From NCBI RefSeq assembly GCF_009914755.1, contig NC_060944.1: a stretch of DNA of 64,000 nucleotides. One strand, 5' to 3'. The notes below the pieces were generated by a model. It did not search any database, was not told the origin of the DNA, and saw only the letters and a list, made by a program, of their open reading frames with translations. Of the stretch, positions 27,815 to 64,000 are shown piece after piece; positions within the stretch are counted from its first letter, which is position 1, and each line of letters begins with the position of its first letter. Source of the stretch: the human T2T-CHM13v2.0 reference genome, Homo sapiens. The translations under genes and the position numbers were made by a program.

Positions 27815-28181
<367 letters not shown>

Positions 28182-29179: not shown

Positions 29180-29530
29180 AACCAGTGGAACTGTCTGTGC
29201 TGATGAGAATGTTTTATTTCTGCATTGTCCAATACAGCCACCACTAGCCTCATGTGGCTGTTGAACATTTGAAGTGTGTTTAGTGTGAAATGTGTTTAGT
29301 GTGATTGAGGAACTAGGCTTTAAGTTTTTTTTTTTTTTTTTTTTTTTTGAGACAGAGTCTCACTCTGTCACCCAGGCTGCAGTGAAGTGGCGCGGTCTTG
29401 GCTCACTGCACTGCAACCTTTGGCTCCTAGGTTCAAGTGAGTCTCGTTAGGCTTTAACTTTAATTGTAAATAGTAATAATTTAAGTTTAACTAGCACATG
29501 TGGCTAGTGGTTACTGTACTTGGTAGCTCA
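29180..29530. mobile_element. MER3-like hAT element interrupted by an Alu fragment (~29325-29446, - strand)
   Basis: ccactagcctcatgtggct / tagcacatgtggctagtgg motifs; Alu flanked by taggctttaa(g/c)ttt. Confidence 0.65.
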
Positions 29531-37572: not shown

Positions 37573-39165
37573 TTTTTTTGGGCAGGAAAAATTCAACATA
37601 TATTTTATTCTAACTATATAAATATTATTCACAGCCAAGTCACATAGTGTACTAAGAAGAAACTTATTTTCCTATGTAACCTTTTGCTTTTCCTAGAGCT
37701 AATAATTGTTTCCTCTGTTTTCTGTTTTATTTGCTTGTTTCCTTTGAAGCTCTTAGCAATTCTTTCATCTTTAATGTCTCAATTACTCTCCATCCTCAGG
37801 CCAAGACTTAGATTTGCAAACACAGTAACAACTTTTAACTTTCTTTCAACTTTATAGGAAGCTCACTTTACACTCAGTAAGATATAATTCTTGAAAAAAA
37901 TTATTGACCAAAGAAAGCCTATTTTTTCCTCATTTGTTTTTCTCTCTCCTTCAATAGCTTTATTGGAATATTATTGACATAAAATTTTATGTACTTAAGC
38001 TGTACAATTCGATGTATTGATATATGCATGCATCGTGAAATGATCCCCGCCTTCCAGCCAATTAGTCACCTCTACTGTTGCCATTTTTGTTTTGTGTATG
38101 TGTGTGTTAAGATTTACTTTAAAATCTATCAGTTTAGCAAATTTCAAGTATGCAGTACAGTATTACTCCTATTGTCACCATGATGTACATTAAATATCCA
38201 AAACTTACTCATCTTGCATAACTGAAGCTTTGTACACTTTGGGCAACATAACCCCATTTTGCCCTCCCCCAAGTCTCTGGCAACCACCACCCTACTTTCA
38301 GCTTCTACGAGTTTATTTTAGATTCCAAATGTAAGTGAGGTCATATAGTATTTCTCTTTCTATATCTCACTTATTTCGCTTGGCATAATGTCCCTCAGTT
38401 CCATCTATGTTGTTGCAAATGGTAGGATTTCCTTCTTTTTTTCAGGTAGAATCATATTTCATTGTGTATATAAACCACATTTTCCTTATCCACTCATTTG
38501 TCAAAGAACATTTAGGTTGTTTCTATGTTATGGTTATTGTGACTGATGCTGCAATGAACTTTGGAGTGCAGATAGCTCTTTGACATACTGATTTTATTTC
38601 CTTTAGATATATACCCAGAAGTGGGATTGCTGGAACATATGGCAATTCTACTTTTAATTTTTTGAGGGATCTCCATACTGTTTTTCATAATGGCTGTACT
38701 AGTTTACATTCTCATCAACAGTGTACAAGGGTTCCTTTTTCTCCACATCCTTACTAACACTTGTTATCTTTTTGTTTTTTTTTGAAAACATATCCTAAGA
38801 GGTGTTATACGATACCTTACTGTAGTTTTGATTTGCATTTCCATGATGATTAGAGATATCCAGCACCTTTTCATATACCTGTTGGCTACTTGAATTTCTT
38901 TTTTTGAGAAACATCTATTTTGGTCCTTTGCCTGTTGTTTACTCAGGTTATTTGTTTGTTTGCTATTGAGTTGTAGGCGCTCCTTATATATATTGGACAT
39001 CAACCCCTTATCAGATATATAGTTTGTAAATATTTCCTCTAGTTCTGTAGGTTGCCTTTTCACTCTGTTGGTTGTTTCCTTTGCTGTGCAGAAGTTTTTT
39101 GGTTTGATGTTGTCCTTCTTGTCTAGTTTTGCTTTTGTTGCCTGTGCTTTAGGTGTCACATTTAA

Positions 39166-39510
<345 letters not shown>

Positions 39511-39882
39511 TTTTCCCCATTTTTTAAAAAAGGGTTTTATGGTATCAAGCTTTACACTTAAGTCTTTAATCCATTGATTTGATCTTTGTGTATAGTGTAA
39601 GATAAGGGTGCATTGTCATTCTTTTGCATGTTGATATCCAGTTTTCCCAACATTTTGGAAGAGACTATTATTTTCCCCATTGTGTGTTCTTGGAACCCTT
39701 GTTGAAGATAATTTGACCATAAATGTGTAGGTTTATTTCTGGGCTCTCTCTTCTGATTCATTAGTTGATATGTCTGCTTTATGCCAGTCCCATACTATTT
39801 CAATTACTATAGCTTTGTAATATAATTGATGTCAGGAAGTGTGATGCCTCCAGCTTTTTTCTTTCCCCTCAAGATTGCTTTG

Positions 39883-42800
39883 TGTGTTCGTCTGTTTTTG
39901 TTGCCATTAAGGAATGCCTGAGACTGGGTAATTTATAAAGAAAGAAGTTTAATTGGCTCACAGTTCTGCAGGCTGTAGAGGAAGCACAGCAGCATCTGCT
40001 CCTGGTGAAGGCCTCAGGAATCCTACAATCATGGTAGAAAGCAAAGGGGGAGCCAGGGTATCATATGGTGAGAGTGGGAGTAAGAGAGAAGGGAGCAGGG
40101 GGGCTGGAGGTGTCATACTCTTTTATTATTTTATATTTTTTTCAGCAATAATGTTGATTTACTATCACTTTATGCACCAGATCTGTGAAAACACACAACC
40201 TATGTTCTATGCTCTCCAGAAAAGGACAAGCATCATGAGGATCATATAAAACATGTACAATCAAAATACAATTTCATGATTGACTATACCATTGGAAACA
40301 CATATGACAATACCAGTTGGTGATATCACTGAGATCACTAGAGCCAGGTGAGATAATCTACATAAGTTTCTCCATAGAATTAAATTTTGAGGGCGATTTG
40401 CTGGGATTGAAGATAAACAGAAACTGAGGAAGAATTTCAGGCAATTACCTGGTCCAGCCCCCAACAAGTGCAAATAAAGACCTGGCTCTCAAGGAAAATC
40501 AATACATCAGTTCCCTCTTAGATGTCAAAATCAGAATCTCCAAATGCACTGATTTAATAAAACAGGTTTTATCAACCTAATGATCAATATGTTCTCACAT
40601 ATTCGTAAAATCGCCTTTAAGTCCTTTTTAACTTTTGTGGTACTCTGAAGATGTGAGAAGCTAATTAGTATCATTTTCATAAAATCTAATACATAAGATA
40701 GGAGGCTTATATAGTGAGTGACAGTCAGTGTTGTGTCACCTAATGGCCAAAAATAACCCAAATCATTGAACCTTTTATCACATATCCTGTTTTGATCCTG
40801 ATAATCATTTTTAAAAATTGAAATCAGCTTTATTTAAGAATTTCCAGCATTGACAACTCTTATAAAAAGCATCCAAGCACAGGGCACAGAACTGTAGCAA
40901 ACAGCATTCTTACGGGTAGCTAACAGACATTAGAACTTCCACCCTTCTTTGAGACACCTGAACTCACTGTGAACTCTGCTTCCAAGTACTCCTTCAAAGC
41001 ATACCACAAGCTCAGTTTATATTCTCAACTCATCAGCTTCAGTTCACATTACCACACTTATGTATCAGTAACAGAAGAGAACACACACCATACAGCATTC
41101 ACAGCAGTTGACAAAAGGGTAGGAAAATACAAGTATCGTTTCACTTAACACATTCAACTAATGTAGGTTGCCTAAGAACAAAGCTCACTGAAAGTCTTCC
41201 AACACATGTGGATGTCCTTTGAATACAAAAGACATTCATACATTGTTTATTATTGTTGTCTGTATACTCTCTCACCAAAATTACAGGATTGAGAGACACA
41301 TCTCAACAAGTTAAAAAATATTCATGATGCACCATCAACTCTCTACCTGCACTCTCTCCTTCTCTCACTCATACTAGCCTTCCATGCCTTGGCAGCACCA
41401 CCAATTCCACACAAAGTTTCAAAAGTTCAGACAGCCTCTGGTTCCATATCACAGCCTTGTGTTCATGACGTTGATAAGACTCCATGAAATAAAGCATAGT
41501 GAATCAAAATGGGAACACCCACTGTCAAAGATGCAGCCTGTGAAGTGTGATGACGAATTCTTGAATGAGAAAGCATGTAGACAGAAGTATTTCTATGGCA
41601 GGATATTTACAGCGCTACTTTCAATGAAGTGCTTCTGTAAACATTTGAAATGAGATGCACTGCAGAGATTAAATGAAGGCTTCATATCGTACTTTTCTAT
41701 ATCAGGTGGGTGGAGTGACAAGTGTTAAAAAACAAAACAAAAGAATCAAACACTGTGACACCATGATCTCCCAAAAGGAGATTTTATTAAGGAAAAAAAA
41801 TCATATGGTGGGGTTCAAATGAAGACAAGGAGAAAAGAATGTAGTTCTCATCAATGTTTTCCATTTTGAGCACGCAAAGAGTTCACTTGAGAAGTCCAGG
41901 GATAAAATATTACAGATATCAATTGTAATGTGTTGATTTTCCAACAGACAAACAGCCATTTGCTTTTAACCACTCAATATTTCAACTCTTTATTTATTCA
42001 ACTCTTTGTGTAACTCAACTCTTAATGTATTCAACTCTTCATGTAACTCTACGTCACAAAACTTATACAATTCCTTTATCTCTTCCTCTTTTTCTAAAGA
42101 AAAATGTCAAAAATACTGCTGAATATACTCCACACTGAACAAACCAATTTTGAAAAGTTTTGTATCTTACCATGTACATTCCGTACCAACAAACCATAAC
42201 CCAAAGTCTACATTTCCCAGCCAGAAGATTGAGAATCCATGCTTGAGCCAGAGCCTCCATTAAAACCATTGCCTGATGCTGATTCCCAACCAATTGCTGC
42301 ACCAGAATTAGAACCACTGTAAGAGTTATTTCTAGAACCAAAGACCTGGTTTGGCTCCCTTTGCATGTTGCCTTGACTTTGGTTATTACCTGATGGGCCT
42401 GACTGGTTCTGCTGGCTGGCTAACATGCTCATCCTACCCCAACTGCTCTGCAGCGCTGCCTGGGCTGCAGCCATCATGGCTGGATTAATGCTGAGCACAC
42501 CAAAATTCATCTACCACCTATATTGGTACCTCGATTGTTTTCCAAGCCAGATCCACCCCTCTACTGTTACCAAATCCACTCAGATTCCCAAATCTTCCAC
42601 TTCTTTCTATCTATTGCTGTCGTGTGATTAGGTTTGGCACTGGATATATGCATGCTGAGTCCTTTAATGATCAAGTCCTCTCCACAAAGAGATTGGGCAA
42701 TCTGATCAACTGCAAATGTAACAAAGGCAAAGGCCCTGAATGGCTTGGGGATGAAGACATCCACCACTTCTTTGTACTGACAGAAAAACTGCCATAGCTC

Positions 42801-44253
42801 ATCTGCAGTCATGTCCTCTGTACAGCGCCCCACAAACACTTCTCTGCTTCTCAAAGGCTCATCTGGGCTTTGCTTAGAGTTGGGAAATTTACAGTCATAC
42901 CATCATCCATCTATCATATGTCACTGTGACATTACTTTCACGTGTCTTTCATACTCCATAAAATGAACAAAGCCAAACCCTTTTGACCAGTTTTAATATC
43001 TATCTTGACTTGGACTTCTCCAGAGGTACTAAAATATTCTTTCAGATCCTGTTTCCATAGGAGGAAAAACAAACTGAGAGCAAAAACTCACTAATTACCA
43101 ACGCTATTAAATAAGATATTTTCTGGACTGCTCTTCACTTTCACTGCCATCTCACCCATTTTTCTTTTGTTATCTTTGGGACAGTTGACAACATATACCA
43201 GATTTCCACAGTCAGCATCAGGGCATGCAGAATTCCTTCTACCAGCTGGATACCTCTCATACACTGAGACACTGGATTCTTGTAGTGAAGTCCACATGCC
43301 CCTGGAAACTGGGCTGTAACTGTGGACAGCAGCACCACCCCATTGTCTTCTGATGATATTTCAACGAGCTCCTTATTCTCAACTTCACTTACCCTAGTGT
43401 ATTCAGACATCTTTTATTTCTCTACTTAGGCCACTGCTAGAAAGCCCAACAGGGACACTGAAGCAGTGACAGATCCAAGCACAGCTTAGTTTATTCTCCT
43501 TGATAATCATTTTTATTGTTCTTCCTGGGACTCATTCAAGACTTTCTAGAATTCATATTAACTCATGGCCAAACATGAAAATAAGTTGTAACAAGGGGGT
43601 ACGTAATGTAGAACATTTGGAAGAGCTGTCTCTTTGTTCTTGCCAGCCACGTTCCTTTGGATGTTTAGCTTGTTAGCAGTGATCATCATGGCCAATTACT
43701 TGATCTGCATCATCATCCTACATAAGCAATTGTTATGTCTTCAGTGATGACCTGAGAGGAAAATACACTCCAATGGCATGGTAAATGCCCTTTCTGCAGG
43801 AGGGACAAGTAAGAAAGACTCAGGATGCTGCAATTCAGGAGGCTGAGCTCTAACCCTTAGCCCCTAAACCCACTGTCTATGAGAAGCCATGCTGAAATTT
43901 AGACAGCAGCACATCACAGACCTGCACAGGCATTGAGCTGGCAGGGCATTGCTCAATGATGGTAGGTGCAGTGTTTACAGAAGTGTGTAATGTGAAGTGC
44001 TAGTGCACAAGGGCCCTATGGTTAAATGTGTTTGAAAAATGCTGCATACTATATCCATTGGCCACACTTTTAAACAACCAGATCTTGCACAAACTCAGAG
44101 CACAAACTCACTAATTACTGTGAGGATGGCACCAAACCATTCATGAGGGATCAGTCGTCATGACACACACATCTCCCATCAGGCCTCACCTCCAGCACTG
44201 GGGATTACATTTCAACATGAGATTTGGAGGGAACAAATGTCCAAACCATGGCA
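39883..44253 (-). mobile_element. MST (MaLR) LTR split into 39883-40124 and 44061-44253 by the TARDBP insert
   Basis: TG…CA termini; 5-bp TSD ctttg at 39878-39882 and 44254-44258; the two halves join at gccacactttt|aaacaaccagatc. Confidence 0.85.
40125..43487 (-). pseudogene. TARDBPP1: TARDBP (TDP-43) processed pseudogene; CDS remnant 43410 to 42208, 3'UTR ~2.1 kb, degenerate poly(A)
   Basis: MSEYTRV…[14 protein letters not shown] (N-terminal domain), [11 protein letters not shown]…RAFAFVTF (RRM2), [18 protein letters not shown]…SSGWEM*; intronless with frameshifts. Parent gene is clear; the P1 symbol is from recalled locus context. Confidence 0.93.
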
Positions 44254-47200
44254 CTTTGGCTATTTGGGATCCATATAAATTTAAGGATTGTTTGTTTCTA
44301 TTTCTGCCCTTGGGATTTCGATAGGGATTGCACTAAATCTGTAGATAGCTTAGGGTAATATGGACATTTTTAACAATATTAAGTCTTTTAATCAATGAAC
44401 ATGAGATATCTGTTTATTTGTGTCTTTTAAAACTTTGTCAAGGTTTTGTAATTTTCAGTATACAAGTCTTTTACCTGCTTAAGTTAATTCTTAGATATTC
44501 CATTTTGTTGCTAATGTAAATGAGATTATTTTCCTAATTTTCTTTTTAGATATTTCACTGTTGGTGTATGGAAATGCCACTAATTTTTGTATGTTGATTT
44601 TGTACCCTGCAACTTTACTGAATTTGCTTATTGGTTGTTCCAACAGTTTTTTTTTTTTTTGGTGTAGAGTGTTTAGAGTTTTCTATGTATATGATCATGT
44701 CATCTTTAAACAGAGATAATTTTATTTCTTCCTTTCTGATTTGTATGCCTTTTTATTTCATTTTCTTGCCTGATTGCTCCAGCCAGGACTTCCAATACTA
44801 TGTTGAATAGCAGTGGCAAGAGTGGGCATCCTTATCTTGCTCTGGATCTTAGAGGAAAAGCTTGTTTTCCCCAGTGATTACGACTTTAACTGTAGTTTTT
44901 TCATATATAGTTTTTATTGTGTTAAGGAAAGCTCCTCCTGTACCTATTTGGTTGAGAGTCTTTACCATGAAAAGATGTTGAATTTTGTCAAATGCGTTTT
45001 GTGCATCTATTAAGGTGATTATGTGGTTTTTGTCTTTCATTTTGTTAACATGGTGTGTCACACTGATTGATTTTCATGTTAAACCAGCTTTGCATCCCAG
45101 GAATAGATCCCACTTCATTATAGTGTGTGATCCTTTTAATGTGCTGTTAAATTCAGTTTGCTAGCAGCTTATTAAATATTTTTACATGTATATTCACCAG
45201 GGATAGTGGCCTGCAGTTTTCTTTTCTTGTATTGTTGTTGTTGTTGCTGTTGTTTTTTTCTGGCTTTGGAATCAGGGTGATGTTGTTCTTATAAAATGAG
45301 TTTGGGAGTGTTCCATCTTCTATTTTTGGAATAGTTTAAGAATGGTTAGTATTAGCTATTTTTAAAATGTTTGATAGAACTCATTTATGAAACCATCTTG
45401 ACCTGGGCTTTTCTTTGTTGGAAAGTTTTTGATGACTGATTCAATCTCCTTGCTTGTTATTGGTCTATTTGTCTTTCTAGTTCTTGATTCAGTCTTGATA
45501 GCTTGTGTGCTTTTAAGAATTAATGCATTTCTTCTAGGTTATCCAATTTGTTGGTATATAATTGTTCACAGTAGTCTCTGTGATTCTTTTTGTTTTTGTG
45601 TCATCTATTGTAATGTCTCCTTTCTAAAAAACTTCTGATTGTATTTAAGTCTTCTCTTTCTGTTTTGTATTAGGCTAGCAAAGGGTTGGATAATTTCATC
45701 TTCTCAAATAAAACCAATTCTTAATTTTATTTTTTCCTATTTTTTGCTTATTTTTGCTTCAATCTTTATTATTTCCTTCCATCTGCTAACTTTGAGTTTA
45801 GTTTGTTTTTCTACTTTTAGTTCCTTGAGTTGTAAAGTTAAGTTGTTTAATTGAGATATTTCTTCTTTTTTAAGGTAGGCACTTAACACTATAAGATTTT
45901 GTCTTAATGCTGCCTTTGCTGCATACCATACACTTTGGTAAGATGTGTTTTGTCTTCATTTTTTTCACGGTAATTTTAAAATTTCTGTTTGCTTTATTCT
46001 CTTATTCAATGGTTGTTCAAGTGTGTGGGGTTTAGTTTTCTTGTTCTTGTGTGAATTTTCTTGTTTTCTTGATATTATTGATTTCTAGTTTCATTCCACT
46101 GTGGTCTGCAAGATACTTGATATAATTAAAATCTTTTTAAATTTTTAAAGACTTGTTTTAAGACACAACGTATGGCCTATTCTGGAGAATATTCTGTGTG
46201 CCCCTGAAAATAATATGCATTCTGCTGCTATTGGGTGGAAAATTCTGTCTATGTCTATTGTCCATTTGATTCATAGTGTTACTCAAGTCAGTGGTTTCCT
46301 TATAGTTTTTCAGCCTAGATGTTCTATCCATTATTGAAAGTGGAGTATTGAAGTCTTCAATTATTATTGTATTGTTGTCAGTTTCTTCCTTCAGATATAC
46401 CAATATTTGTTTTATATATTTAGTTGCTCTGATGTTAGGTGCATATATATTTACAATTATATCTTCCTCTTGAATTGACTTTTTTAATCATTATATAATG
46501 ATCTTTGCCAATTTTTGACTTAAAATCTTTTGTCTAAGTATAGCTCTCCCTGCTTTCTTTTGGTTGCCATTTGTATAGAATATCTTTTTCTATCCCTTCA
46601 CTTTCAGGCTATGTGTGTCCTCACATTTAAAGTGAATCGTTTATAGACACTAAGTCACTGGATCATGTTTTTTAATCCACTCAGCAACTCTATGCCTTTA
46701 CATTGGAGAATTTAATCCATTTACATTTCAAGTGATTGTTGATATGTAAGAACTTACAATTTTGTTAATTGCGGTCTGTTTTGCAGTTCTTTTGTAACTT
46801 TCTCTCTTTTGTTATCTCCTTTTGTTGTCTGATTTTTTTTTTTTTTTTGTAGCAGTTTGGTTTGGTTCCTTTCTCCTTGTCTTTTTGTGTATCTATTATA
46901 GACTTTTCTTTTGTGGTTAACATGGGGCTTGTGTAATTCTTCTTGTAGTTATAAGCATCTATTTTAATTTGATAACAACTCAAGTTCAATTGCATACAAA
47001 AATTCTGCACTTTATCCCCTTCCACACATACACTTTGTGTTCTTGAAGTCAGAATTTTTATGTTATGAGTCTGTTCACAATTTTTTAAAAAATGTGCTTT
47101 TTAATCAACACAAAATTGTACATATTTATGGAATACATAGTGATATTTTAATATATGCAGTGTATAGTGATCAAATCAGGGTAATCAGCATATTCATCAC

Positions 47201-60094: not shown

Positions 60095-60198
60095 ATTAGT
60101 GGGTGCAGCGCACCAGCATGGCACATGTATACATATGTAACTAACCTGCACAATGTGCACATGTACCCTAAAACTTAGAGTATAATAAAAAAAAAAAA
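60095..60198 (+). mobile_element. L1HS (Ta-like) extreme 3' fragment
   Basis: attagtgggtgcagcgcacc…aaacttaGagtataat plus poly(A). G at 60178 and A before ttagt match the recalled Ta diagnostics. Confidence 0.75.

Positions 60199-63061: not shown

Positions 63062-64000
<939 letters not shown>

What the first reader, a model, noticed from the sequence alone, without database searches (positions are those of the whole stretch)
43063..43098. 30-bp insertion in the TARDBP CDS copied from the retrocopy's own flank
Seen: 43069-43098 (acaaactgagagcaaaaactcactaattac) matches 44089-44118 (acaaactcagagcacaaactcactaattac) at 28/30, same strand, 1020 bp apart. The second copy is MST LTR sequence about 18 bp beyond the right-hand TSD. 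The first copy interrupts the RRM1 LIVLG|LPW codons of recalled TARDBP, next to a small deletion. Inference: a locally templated insertion, either a template jump to target-site DNA during integration or a later polymerase-theta-type repair patch.
Basis: partly seen in the sequence, partly recalled or inferred. Interest (0 to 1): 0.7.

Follow-up and report, generated by a model that had tools for sequence, protein, structure and literature searches.

The report
Local DNA repair scar in pseudogene
A dead copy of the TDP-43 gene carries a 35-base patch, 30 bases of which match a repeat 1 kb away, most likely pasted in while a later DNA break was repaired; this is an ordinary, known kind of scar with no predicted function.

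Summary
The match is real and local. 43069-43098 equals 44089-44118 at 28/30, and these are the only two places in the 3.1-Gb genome within 3 mismatches. The parent TARDBP exon and 4 of 4 sister retrocopies lack it. It shares four alleles with the local LTR that are rare among 29 other copies.

The geometry was misread. TARDBPP1 has its own perfect 15-bp TSD (40799-40813 / 43501-43515), so the donor lies 574 bp beyond it. The '18 bp' refers to the decayed TSD of a probably older 1.2-kb A-tailed insertion that hosts the retrocopy and splits the LTR. This removes the main support for an integration-time jump.

The anatomy (donor 1 kb away, 2-3-bp deletion, 5-nt filler, no TSD or tail) fits repair-mediated duplication (Pace 2009). 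The filler may be a snap-back copy that created 4-nt microhomology with the donor. Dating leans later than integration but is inconclusive (Bayes factor 0.8-18).

Best reading: later microhomology-primed break repair (0.75). Integration-time template switching stays possible (0.15). New member of a known kind; low interest.

The parts
43069..43098 (+). 30-nt templated copy (acceptor) of the local LTR segment
   Evidence: 28/30 to 44089-44118; only two genome places at <=3 mismatches; shares 4 locally rare alleles
43064..43068 (+). 5-nt filler; with neighbouring bases (43063-43072) it resembles an inverted copy of a 9-nt parent word just upstream of the break (possible snap-back, one extra A)
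   Evidence: background 0 of 2244 parent-exon windows, 71 of 12749 window positions, 0.1% of shuffles; post hoc
44089..44118 (+). donor segment in the right half of the LTR; one substitution (44103) likely arose here after copying
   Evidence: local base shared by 1 of 28 copies, insert base by 26 of 28
43052..43055 (.). site of a 9-bp deletion relative to the parent; it removed most of the proposed snap-back template
40817..43485 (-). TARDBPP1 processed pseudogene, colinear with parent exons 1-6, many frameshifts and stops
   Evidence: 248 substitutions in 2564 aligned sites and 38 gap events
40799..40813 (+). left copy of the retrocopy's own 15-bp TSD
   Evidence: 15/15 identical to 43501-43515; absent from both parent loci
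43501..43515 (+). right copy of the retrocopy's own 15-bp TSD
43486..43500 (-). 15 extra nt at the retrocopy's 5' junction, not clearly parent sequence; 12/15 inverted match to 43059-43073
40125..40798 (-). 3' part of an outer ~1.2-kb insertion, ending in a decayed A-rich tail (40125-40143); source not found
   Evidence: no Pfam hit
43516..44060 (-). 5' part of the same outer insertion
   Evidence: one weak Pfam hit below its cut-off
40112..40124 (+). left copy of the outer insertion's decayed TSD
   Evidence: 44089-44071 = 18
39883..40124 (+). left half of the solo LTR; 5-bp TSD copy at 39878-39882
44061..44253 (+). right half of the solo LTR, holding the donor; 5-bp TSD copy at 44254-44258

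Best explanation
The 35-nt patch holds 30 bases copied from the LTR about 1 kb away, and it most likely formed after the TARDBP retrocopy had integrated, when a germline DNA break in the Gly110 codon was likely repaired by microhomology-primed template switching. Shown: the donor's identity, the loss of 2-3 parent bases, the 5-nt filler, 1 bp of microhomology at the right junction, and no TSD or A-tail. Inferred steps: (1) the broken 3' end folded back on the adjacent inverted word and added about 9 nt; (2) the new 4-nt end primed on the LTR about 1 kb away and copied 26 nt; (3) the strand released and joined the other end through 1-2 bp. This is a small repair-mediated duplication. Polymerase theta is a plausible enzyme (perhaps even odds against SDSA or MMBIR polymerases) but is not shown. 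The patch is predicted to be neutral, since the pseudogene is broken at many other places.
For: Unique local donor. Junction class deletion + filler (+ short microhomology) without tail or TSD matches Pace 2009 Table 1, where MH+Del+Filler is the commonest class (10 of 39) and Filler+Del is 5 of 39; donors were mostly within 3 kb, with a peak near 1.2 kb that the authors say may be an artefact. The donor is 574 bp from the retrocopy's TSD, whereas integration-time templates are reported as typically within 15 bp and rare, 22 cases among about 3,600 solo L1 insertions. The patch is internal, 436 bp from the 5' TSD, and the mRNA copy resumes 2-3 nt on. Two mismatches in 30 against 4.8 expected at integration age; four local alleles arose before the copy and one after. 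Multi-template germline insertions with inverted pieces are described (PMC8421209; snap-back SD-MMEJ, PMC2943611).
Against: Dating is weak: P(<=2 of 30) = 0.12, or 0.18 at non-CpG rates, and the retrocopy's own TSD is also better preserved than expected (0 of 15, P 0.07-0.10). Two of the four rare alleles sit at CpG-like sites; without them the Bayes factor falls from 18 to 0.8-2.4. Definite microhomology is only 1 bp, below Pace's 2-9 nt, unless the snap-back step is accepted, and that step is post hoc and needs one extra A. The 15 extra nt at the 5' junction match the patch junction inverted at 12/15; 43 of 6384 background windows score as high. If real, this would place the patch at integration time.
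Confidence: 0.75

Rival explanations
1. During L1-driven reverse transcription of TARDBP mRNA, the cDNA end left the RNA, copied 26-30 nt of target-side DNA 574 bp beyond the nick, returned to the mRNA within 2-3 nt, finished, and perhaps folded back on the patch to make the 15 extra 5' bases.
For: Templated insertions during L1 integration are described. The copy's orientation equals the direction of cDNA synthesis (sequence). The 12/15 inverted match of the 5' extra bases falls on the patch junction (43 of 6384 windows as good; 27 of 6384 with 6 more bases). Dating does not exclude it. Exon 3 and its borders hold 7 gap events in about 170 bp. That L1 reverse transcriptase lacks RNase H, leaving the RNA tethered, is recalled knowledge.
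Against: Reported templates are typically within 15 bp of the site; here 574 bp. It needs three or four switches in one event. The 5' match is A/G-rich, unplanned, and has 12 equally good hits elsewhere in the window. The gap cluster is not unique: 9 events lie in 42017-42316, and two sisters also have deletions just upstream of this site.
Confidence: 0.15
2. The outer 1.2-kb element and TARDBPP1 moved here together as one composite transcript from a source locus since lost, and the patch was copied from DNA 18 bp beyond the outer target site during that integration.
For: The donor does start 18 bp from the outer TSD, close to the reported 15-bp range. It would explain a patch younger than the retrocopy's divergence.
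Against: No source: the outer halves match nowhere else in the genome and flank none of the four sister retrocopies (0 of 8 loci). The outer TSD (2 substitutions in 11 plus a gap) and its tail look older than the patch (2 in 30), though not significantly (Fisher P 0.29). The transcript would have had to read through the TARDBP polyadenylation signal.
Confidence: 0.05
3. The 30 nt were copied after integration from an RNA or free DNA fragment of the neighbouring LTR and captured at the break by end joining, rather than by strand invasion of the chromosome.
For: Short junction microhomology fits end joining; hybrid synthesis-plus-NHEJ capture is described in yeast (PMC11724301).
Against: A diffusible template has no reason to come from the one copy 1 kb away among thousands.
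Confidence: 0.04
4. Chance similarity, a TARDBP-borne sequence, or a copy from some other LTR.
For: The donor belongs to a large repeat family.
Against:: two places only, absent from parent and sisters, best other copy 25/30, and the allele at 44113 is shared by 0 of 29 copies.
Confidence: 0.01

Closest known systems
Repair-mediated duplications (Pace, Sen, Batzer, Feschotte 2009, PMC2671141)
   Same: Germline copy of a nearby segment into an unrelated site; donor within 5 kb (here 1020 bp); small deletion and filler; no tail or TSD; some acceptors have two donors.
   Different: 30 nt is below their 50-bp floor, and the acceptor is a processed pseudogene, not an annotated TE, so their pipeline could not list it. 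None of the 42 chr20 entries in Table S1 lies between 4.3 and 9.7 Mb. Definite microhomology is 1 bp.
SD-MMEJ / polymerase-theta templated insertions (PMC2943611) and MMBIR templated insertions (PMC8421209)
   Same: Short insert, possible inverted snap-back piece next to the break, more than one template, return to the original site.
   Different: Those templates are mostly adjacent to the break (the MMB-TI search covers 100 bp); the main donor here is 1 kb away. No genetic test of the enzyme is possible.
Templated insertions during L1 integration (bioRxiv 10.1101/2024.08.27.596794)
   Same: A short local genomic segment (<250 bp) embedded in a retrotransposed sequence.
   Different: Reported templates are typically within 15 bp of the insertion site; here 574 bp from the retrocopy's TSD. 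Simultaneity is not shown here.

Membership tests
Repair-mediated duplication (Pace 2009) | Insert has one donor, on the same chromosome, >50 bp and <5 kb away | tested here: met
   one donor, 1020 bp
Repair-mediated duplication (Pace 2009) | Breakpoints show deletion, filler or microhomology | tested here: met
   2-3-bp deletion, 5-nt filler, 1-bp microhomology (4 bp more if the snap-back step holds)
Repair-mediated duplication (Pace 2009) | No poly(A/T) tail at the insert | tested here: met
   the filler's A-run with the first donor base is 5 nt, at their threshold, but there is no TSD
Repair-mediated duplication (Pace 2009) | Empty (pre-insertion) site in orthologues | not testable with these tools
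   no primate relatives are held; parent and 4 paralogous retrocopies show the empty state
Repair-mediated duplication (Pace 2009) | Length of at least 50 bp (their detection floor, not a mechanistic limit) | tested here: not met
   30 nt templated, 35 nt in all; this keeps it out of their catalogue, not out of the mechanism
Polymerase-theta end joining (SD-MMEJ/TMEJ) | Insert templated from sequence flanking the break, direct or inverted, with short primer repeats | tested here: inconclusive
   9-nt inverted word with one extra A, background 0.1-0.6%, post hoc; main donor is 1 kb away
Polymerase-theta end joining (SD-MMEJ/TMEJ) | Dependence on POLQ | not testable with these tools
   an ancient fixed event
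L1 integration-time templated insertion | Template typically within about 15 bp of the insertion site | tested here: not met
   574 bp from the retrocopy's TSD; 18 bp only from the outer element's TSD
L1 integration-time templated insertion | Same age as the retrocopy | tested here: inconclusive
   Bayes factor for later versus integration 0.8-18
Processed pseudogene made by TPRT (host TARDBPP1) | Intron loss, TSD, endonuclease-like site | tested here: met
   exons joined; 15-bp TSD; AT/AAAA-like site; the A-tail is nearly absent
MST / MaLR solo LTR (donor) | TG...CA ends, 5-bp TSD, about 0.4 kb, many copies | tested here: met
MST / MaLR solo LTR (donor) | Match to the named family model | not testable with these tools
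   no repeat library is offered; the name is recalled

The most novel reading that the evidence does not exclude
One ancient L1 reverse-transcription event left the TARDBP mRNA in mid-gene, snapped back, copied chromosomal DNA 574 bp beyond its own nick, resumed on the mRNA within 3 nt, and then folded back onto that patch to seal the 5' junction. That would be a germline fossil of long-range, round-trip RNA-to-DNA-to-RNA template switching.
Probability: 0.12. Interest if true: 0.55.

Novelty: new member of a known kind. Interest (0 to 1): 0.22.

Why it matters
As a later repair scar it matters little: hundreds of such local duplications are catalogued in the human genome, and this one lies in a pseudogene that is broken at many other places. 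Its modest value is methodological. The parent gene gives the exact pre-break sequence, so retrocopies can serve as reporters for sub-50-bp templated insertions that TE-based pipelines miss. If orthologues showed it to be as old as the retrocopy, it would extend the known reach of template switching during L1-driven integration from about 15 bp to over 500 bp, with return to the RNA.

Tried and rejected
Source of the outer 1.2-kb element: four DNA searches of the genome and one six-frame protein search returned only the locus itself. Twelve translated frames gave one Pfam hit, E 0.057 and below its cut-off, rejected as chance. The search is seed-limited, so an old diverged source may be missed.

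APOBEC editing as the origin of the 15 extra 5' bases: no sense-strand G-to-A excess in the retrocopy (49 of 619 G against 37 of 393 C-to-T, non-CpG); the 15 nt align poorly to the parent 5' UTR. Rejected, though a decayed parent UTR cannot be excluded.

The 5' extra bases as template of the 5-nt filler: needs two substitutions in seven bases against one A-run change for snap-back; set aside.

Clustered deletions as a sign of one error-prone event: not unique to this site.

The all-sites Bayes factor of 18: not relied on, because it collapses to 0.8-2.4 without CpG-like sites.

A second such duplication in the window: self-comparison found two others of >=88% within 5 kb, both by appearance interspersed-repeat pairs (an L1-type 3' end with A-tail and an Alu-type end; names recalled).

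Prior description: searches for TARDBPP1 (3 papers) and TARDBP + pseudogene + chromosome 20 + retrotransposed (1 paper) gave listings unrelated to this feature by title and abstract start; none was read in full.

Primate orthologues and earlier scan findings were not available, so lineage distribution remains open.

Full report
1. Observation. 43069-43098 and 44089-44118 match at 28 of 30 bases, same strand, 1020 bp apart, with no extension on either side. The next-best ungapped match in the window is 21/30, and chance expectation is 8e-11 per 10 kb. A search of the whole 3.1-Gb genome at up to 3 mismatches returns these two places only, and none for the reversed control (that tool warns that very common words can be skipped).

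2. Not from TARDBP. The parent gene on C1 and four sister retrocopies were fetched. The parent exon translates to TDP-43 residues 81-133 at full identity, and the break falls in the Gly110 codon. The parent and 4 of 4 sisters are uninterrupted here; the best match of the 30-mer in those six loci is 18-20/30.

3. From the local LTR copy. I aligned 29 of the 39 other copies listed (those returned as loci; they are the best scorers of 3607 candidates, so biased towards the local copy). The insert's best ungapped match among them is 25/30, mean 22. It shares four alleles with the local copy that are rare elsewhere: 3 of 29, 4 of 29, 3 of 28 and 0 of 29. Of the two differences, one likely arose in the insert (24 of 29 copies side with the donor) and one in the donor (26 of 28 side with the insert). 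Two of the four rare alleles are at CpG-like sites.

4. TARDBPP1 (40817-43485, minus strand) has a perfect 15-bp TSD at 40799-40813 and 43501-43515, absent from the parent loci. It sits inside a separate insertion of about 1.2 kb with a decayed A-rich tail and a decayed TSD at 40112-40124 and 44061-44071 that begins at a TT/AAAA site. That insertion splits a solo LTR (39883-44253; TG...CA, 5-bp TSD, about 424 bp without the interruption). The donor starts 18 bp after the outer TSD but 574 bp after the retrocopy's own. The likely order, inferred from nesting and TSD decay, is LTR, outer element, TARDBPP1, patch. The outer element's source was not found.

5. Junction anatomy. Parent-like sequence runs to 43063. 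Then come 5 nt of filler (43064-43068), the 30-nt copy, and parent sequence again. Three parent bases are replaced, one of which equals the insert's last base (1-bp microhomology; 2-3 bp lost). There is no TSD. A 9-bp deletion lies 10 bp to the left. The filler with its neighbours (43063-43072) is the reverse complement of a 9-nt parent word just upstream of the break, with one extra A. Such a word occurs in 0 of 2244 other 60-nt parent-exon windows, 71 of 12749 window positions and 0.1% of shuffles. If real, snap-back synthesis made a 4-nt end identical to the donor's first four bases. The test was post hoc, so this step is suggestive only.

6. Dating. TARDBPP1 differs from the parent at 248 of 2564 sites; after polarising with sisters, 198 of 2481 (0.080) are its own, 171 of 2400 (0.071) outside CpG. 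A copy made at integration should differ from its donor at about 4.8 of 30 sites; 2 are seen (P 0.12; 0.18 non-CpG). Adding the four pre-copy alleles gives a Bayes factor of 18 for a later origin, but only 0.8-2.4 without CpG-like sites and 1.9 from post-copy changes alone. The retrocopy's own TSD, which is of integration age by definition, shows 0 of 15 differences (P 0.07-0.10), so small counts here are noisy. Dating leans later and decides nothing.

7. A result against my reading. Fifteen bases at the retrocopy's 5' junction (43486-43500) are not clearly parent sequence and match 43059-43073, the left junction of the patch, inverted at 12/15. Twelve other places in the window match as well, and 43 of 6384 sliding windows score as high (27 of 6384 with six more bases). 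For one named site that is about 0.5%; allowing for the several sites I would have found interesting, it is a few percent. If real, the patch existed when the retrocopy was sealed. I raise the integration model to 0.15 for it.

8. Mechanism. Most likely a germline break in the integrated retrocopy was repaired by microhomology-primed synthesis: snap-back, a jump to the LTR about 1 kb away, 26 nt of copying, and rejoining. Shown: donor, deletion, filler, distances. Inferred: timing, the snap-back step, the enzyme. The base-rate argument is my inference: 824 proximal duplications of 50 bp or more were found inside TEs alone, while integration-time templated inserts were 22 among about 3,600 somatic solo L1s and typically drew on DNA within 15 bp (those authors note they may undercount).

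9. Known context and what I saw. PMC2671141: parts 1-3 of 8 of the text, passages, and all 42 chr20 entries of Table S1, none between 4.3 and 9.7 Mb; a 30-nt insert in a pseudogene is outside its method. bioRxiv 10.1101/2024.08.27.596794: passages and the end of section 4; its Supplementary Fig. 4d, which holds the distance data, was not seen and may bear on how firm the 15-bp range is. PMC2943611, PMC8421209, PMC11724301 and PMC13174262: passages only. Searches for this locus gave four listings, none about this feature by title or abstract start; I did not read them. The library lacks most subscription papers. The names MST, L1 and Alu, and L1's lack of RNase H, are recalled.

10. Verdict. 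A real, locally templated insertion and a new member of a known kind (repair-mediated duplication below 50 bp), with no predicted function. Interest 0.22. One primate orthologue carrying TARDBPP1 without the patch would settle the timing.

Noticed in passing
window 40125-40798 and 43516-44060 (minus strand): A 1.2-kb A-tailed insertion with a TT/AAAA-type TSD hosts TARDBPP1 and splits the LTR. It matches nothing else in the genome in five searches and has no Pfam hit above cut-off; possibly an orphan transduction or a retrocopy of a lost or diverged transcript. It is not in the supplied gene table.
   Followed up: partly
window 38200-45000: Nested insertions: an old L1-like element (name recalled) holds the solo LTR, which holds the outer element, which holds TARDBPP1, which holds the patch; an Alu-like repeat lies at 39204-39510.
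   Followed up: partly
window 43486-43500: 15 extra bases at the retrocopy's 5' junction with a 12/15 inverted match to the patch junction; origin unexplained.
   Followed up: yes
window 40813-40820: TARDBPP1 has almost no poly(A) tail: a short T-run on the sense strand stands between the parent's 3' end and the TSD.
   Followed up: no
window 41982-42060: A 33-bp tandem duplication (88% identity) with shorter internal repeats in the pseudogene's 3' UTR, about 58 bases longer than the parent.
   Followed up: no
L011-L014 (C13, C8, C6, C2): The sister TARDBP retrocopies differ widely in age: 5.2%, 6.2%, 14.0% and 3.7% from the parent, against 9.4% for TARDBPP1. Two have deletions in the direct-repeat stretch just upstream of the patch site.
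   Followed up: partly
window 60096-60196 and 63068-63168; 27980-28065 and 29325-29410: Two other close near-identical pairs (one inverted) that look like interspersed-repeat ends rather than templated patches.
   Followed up: no
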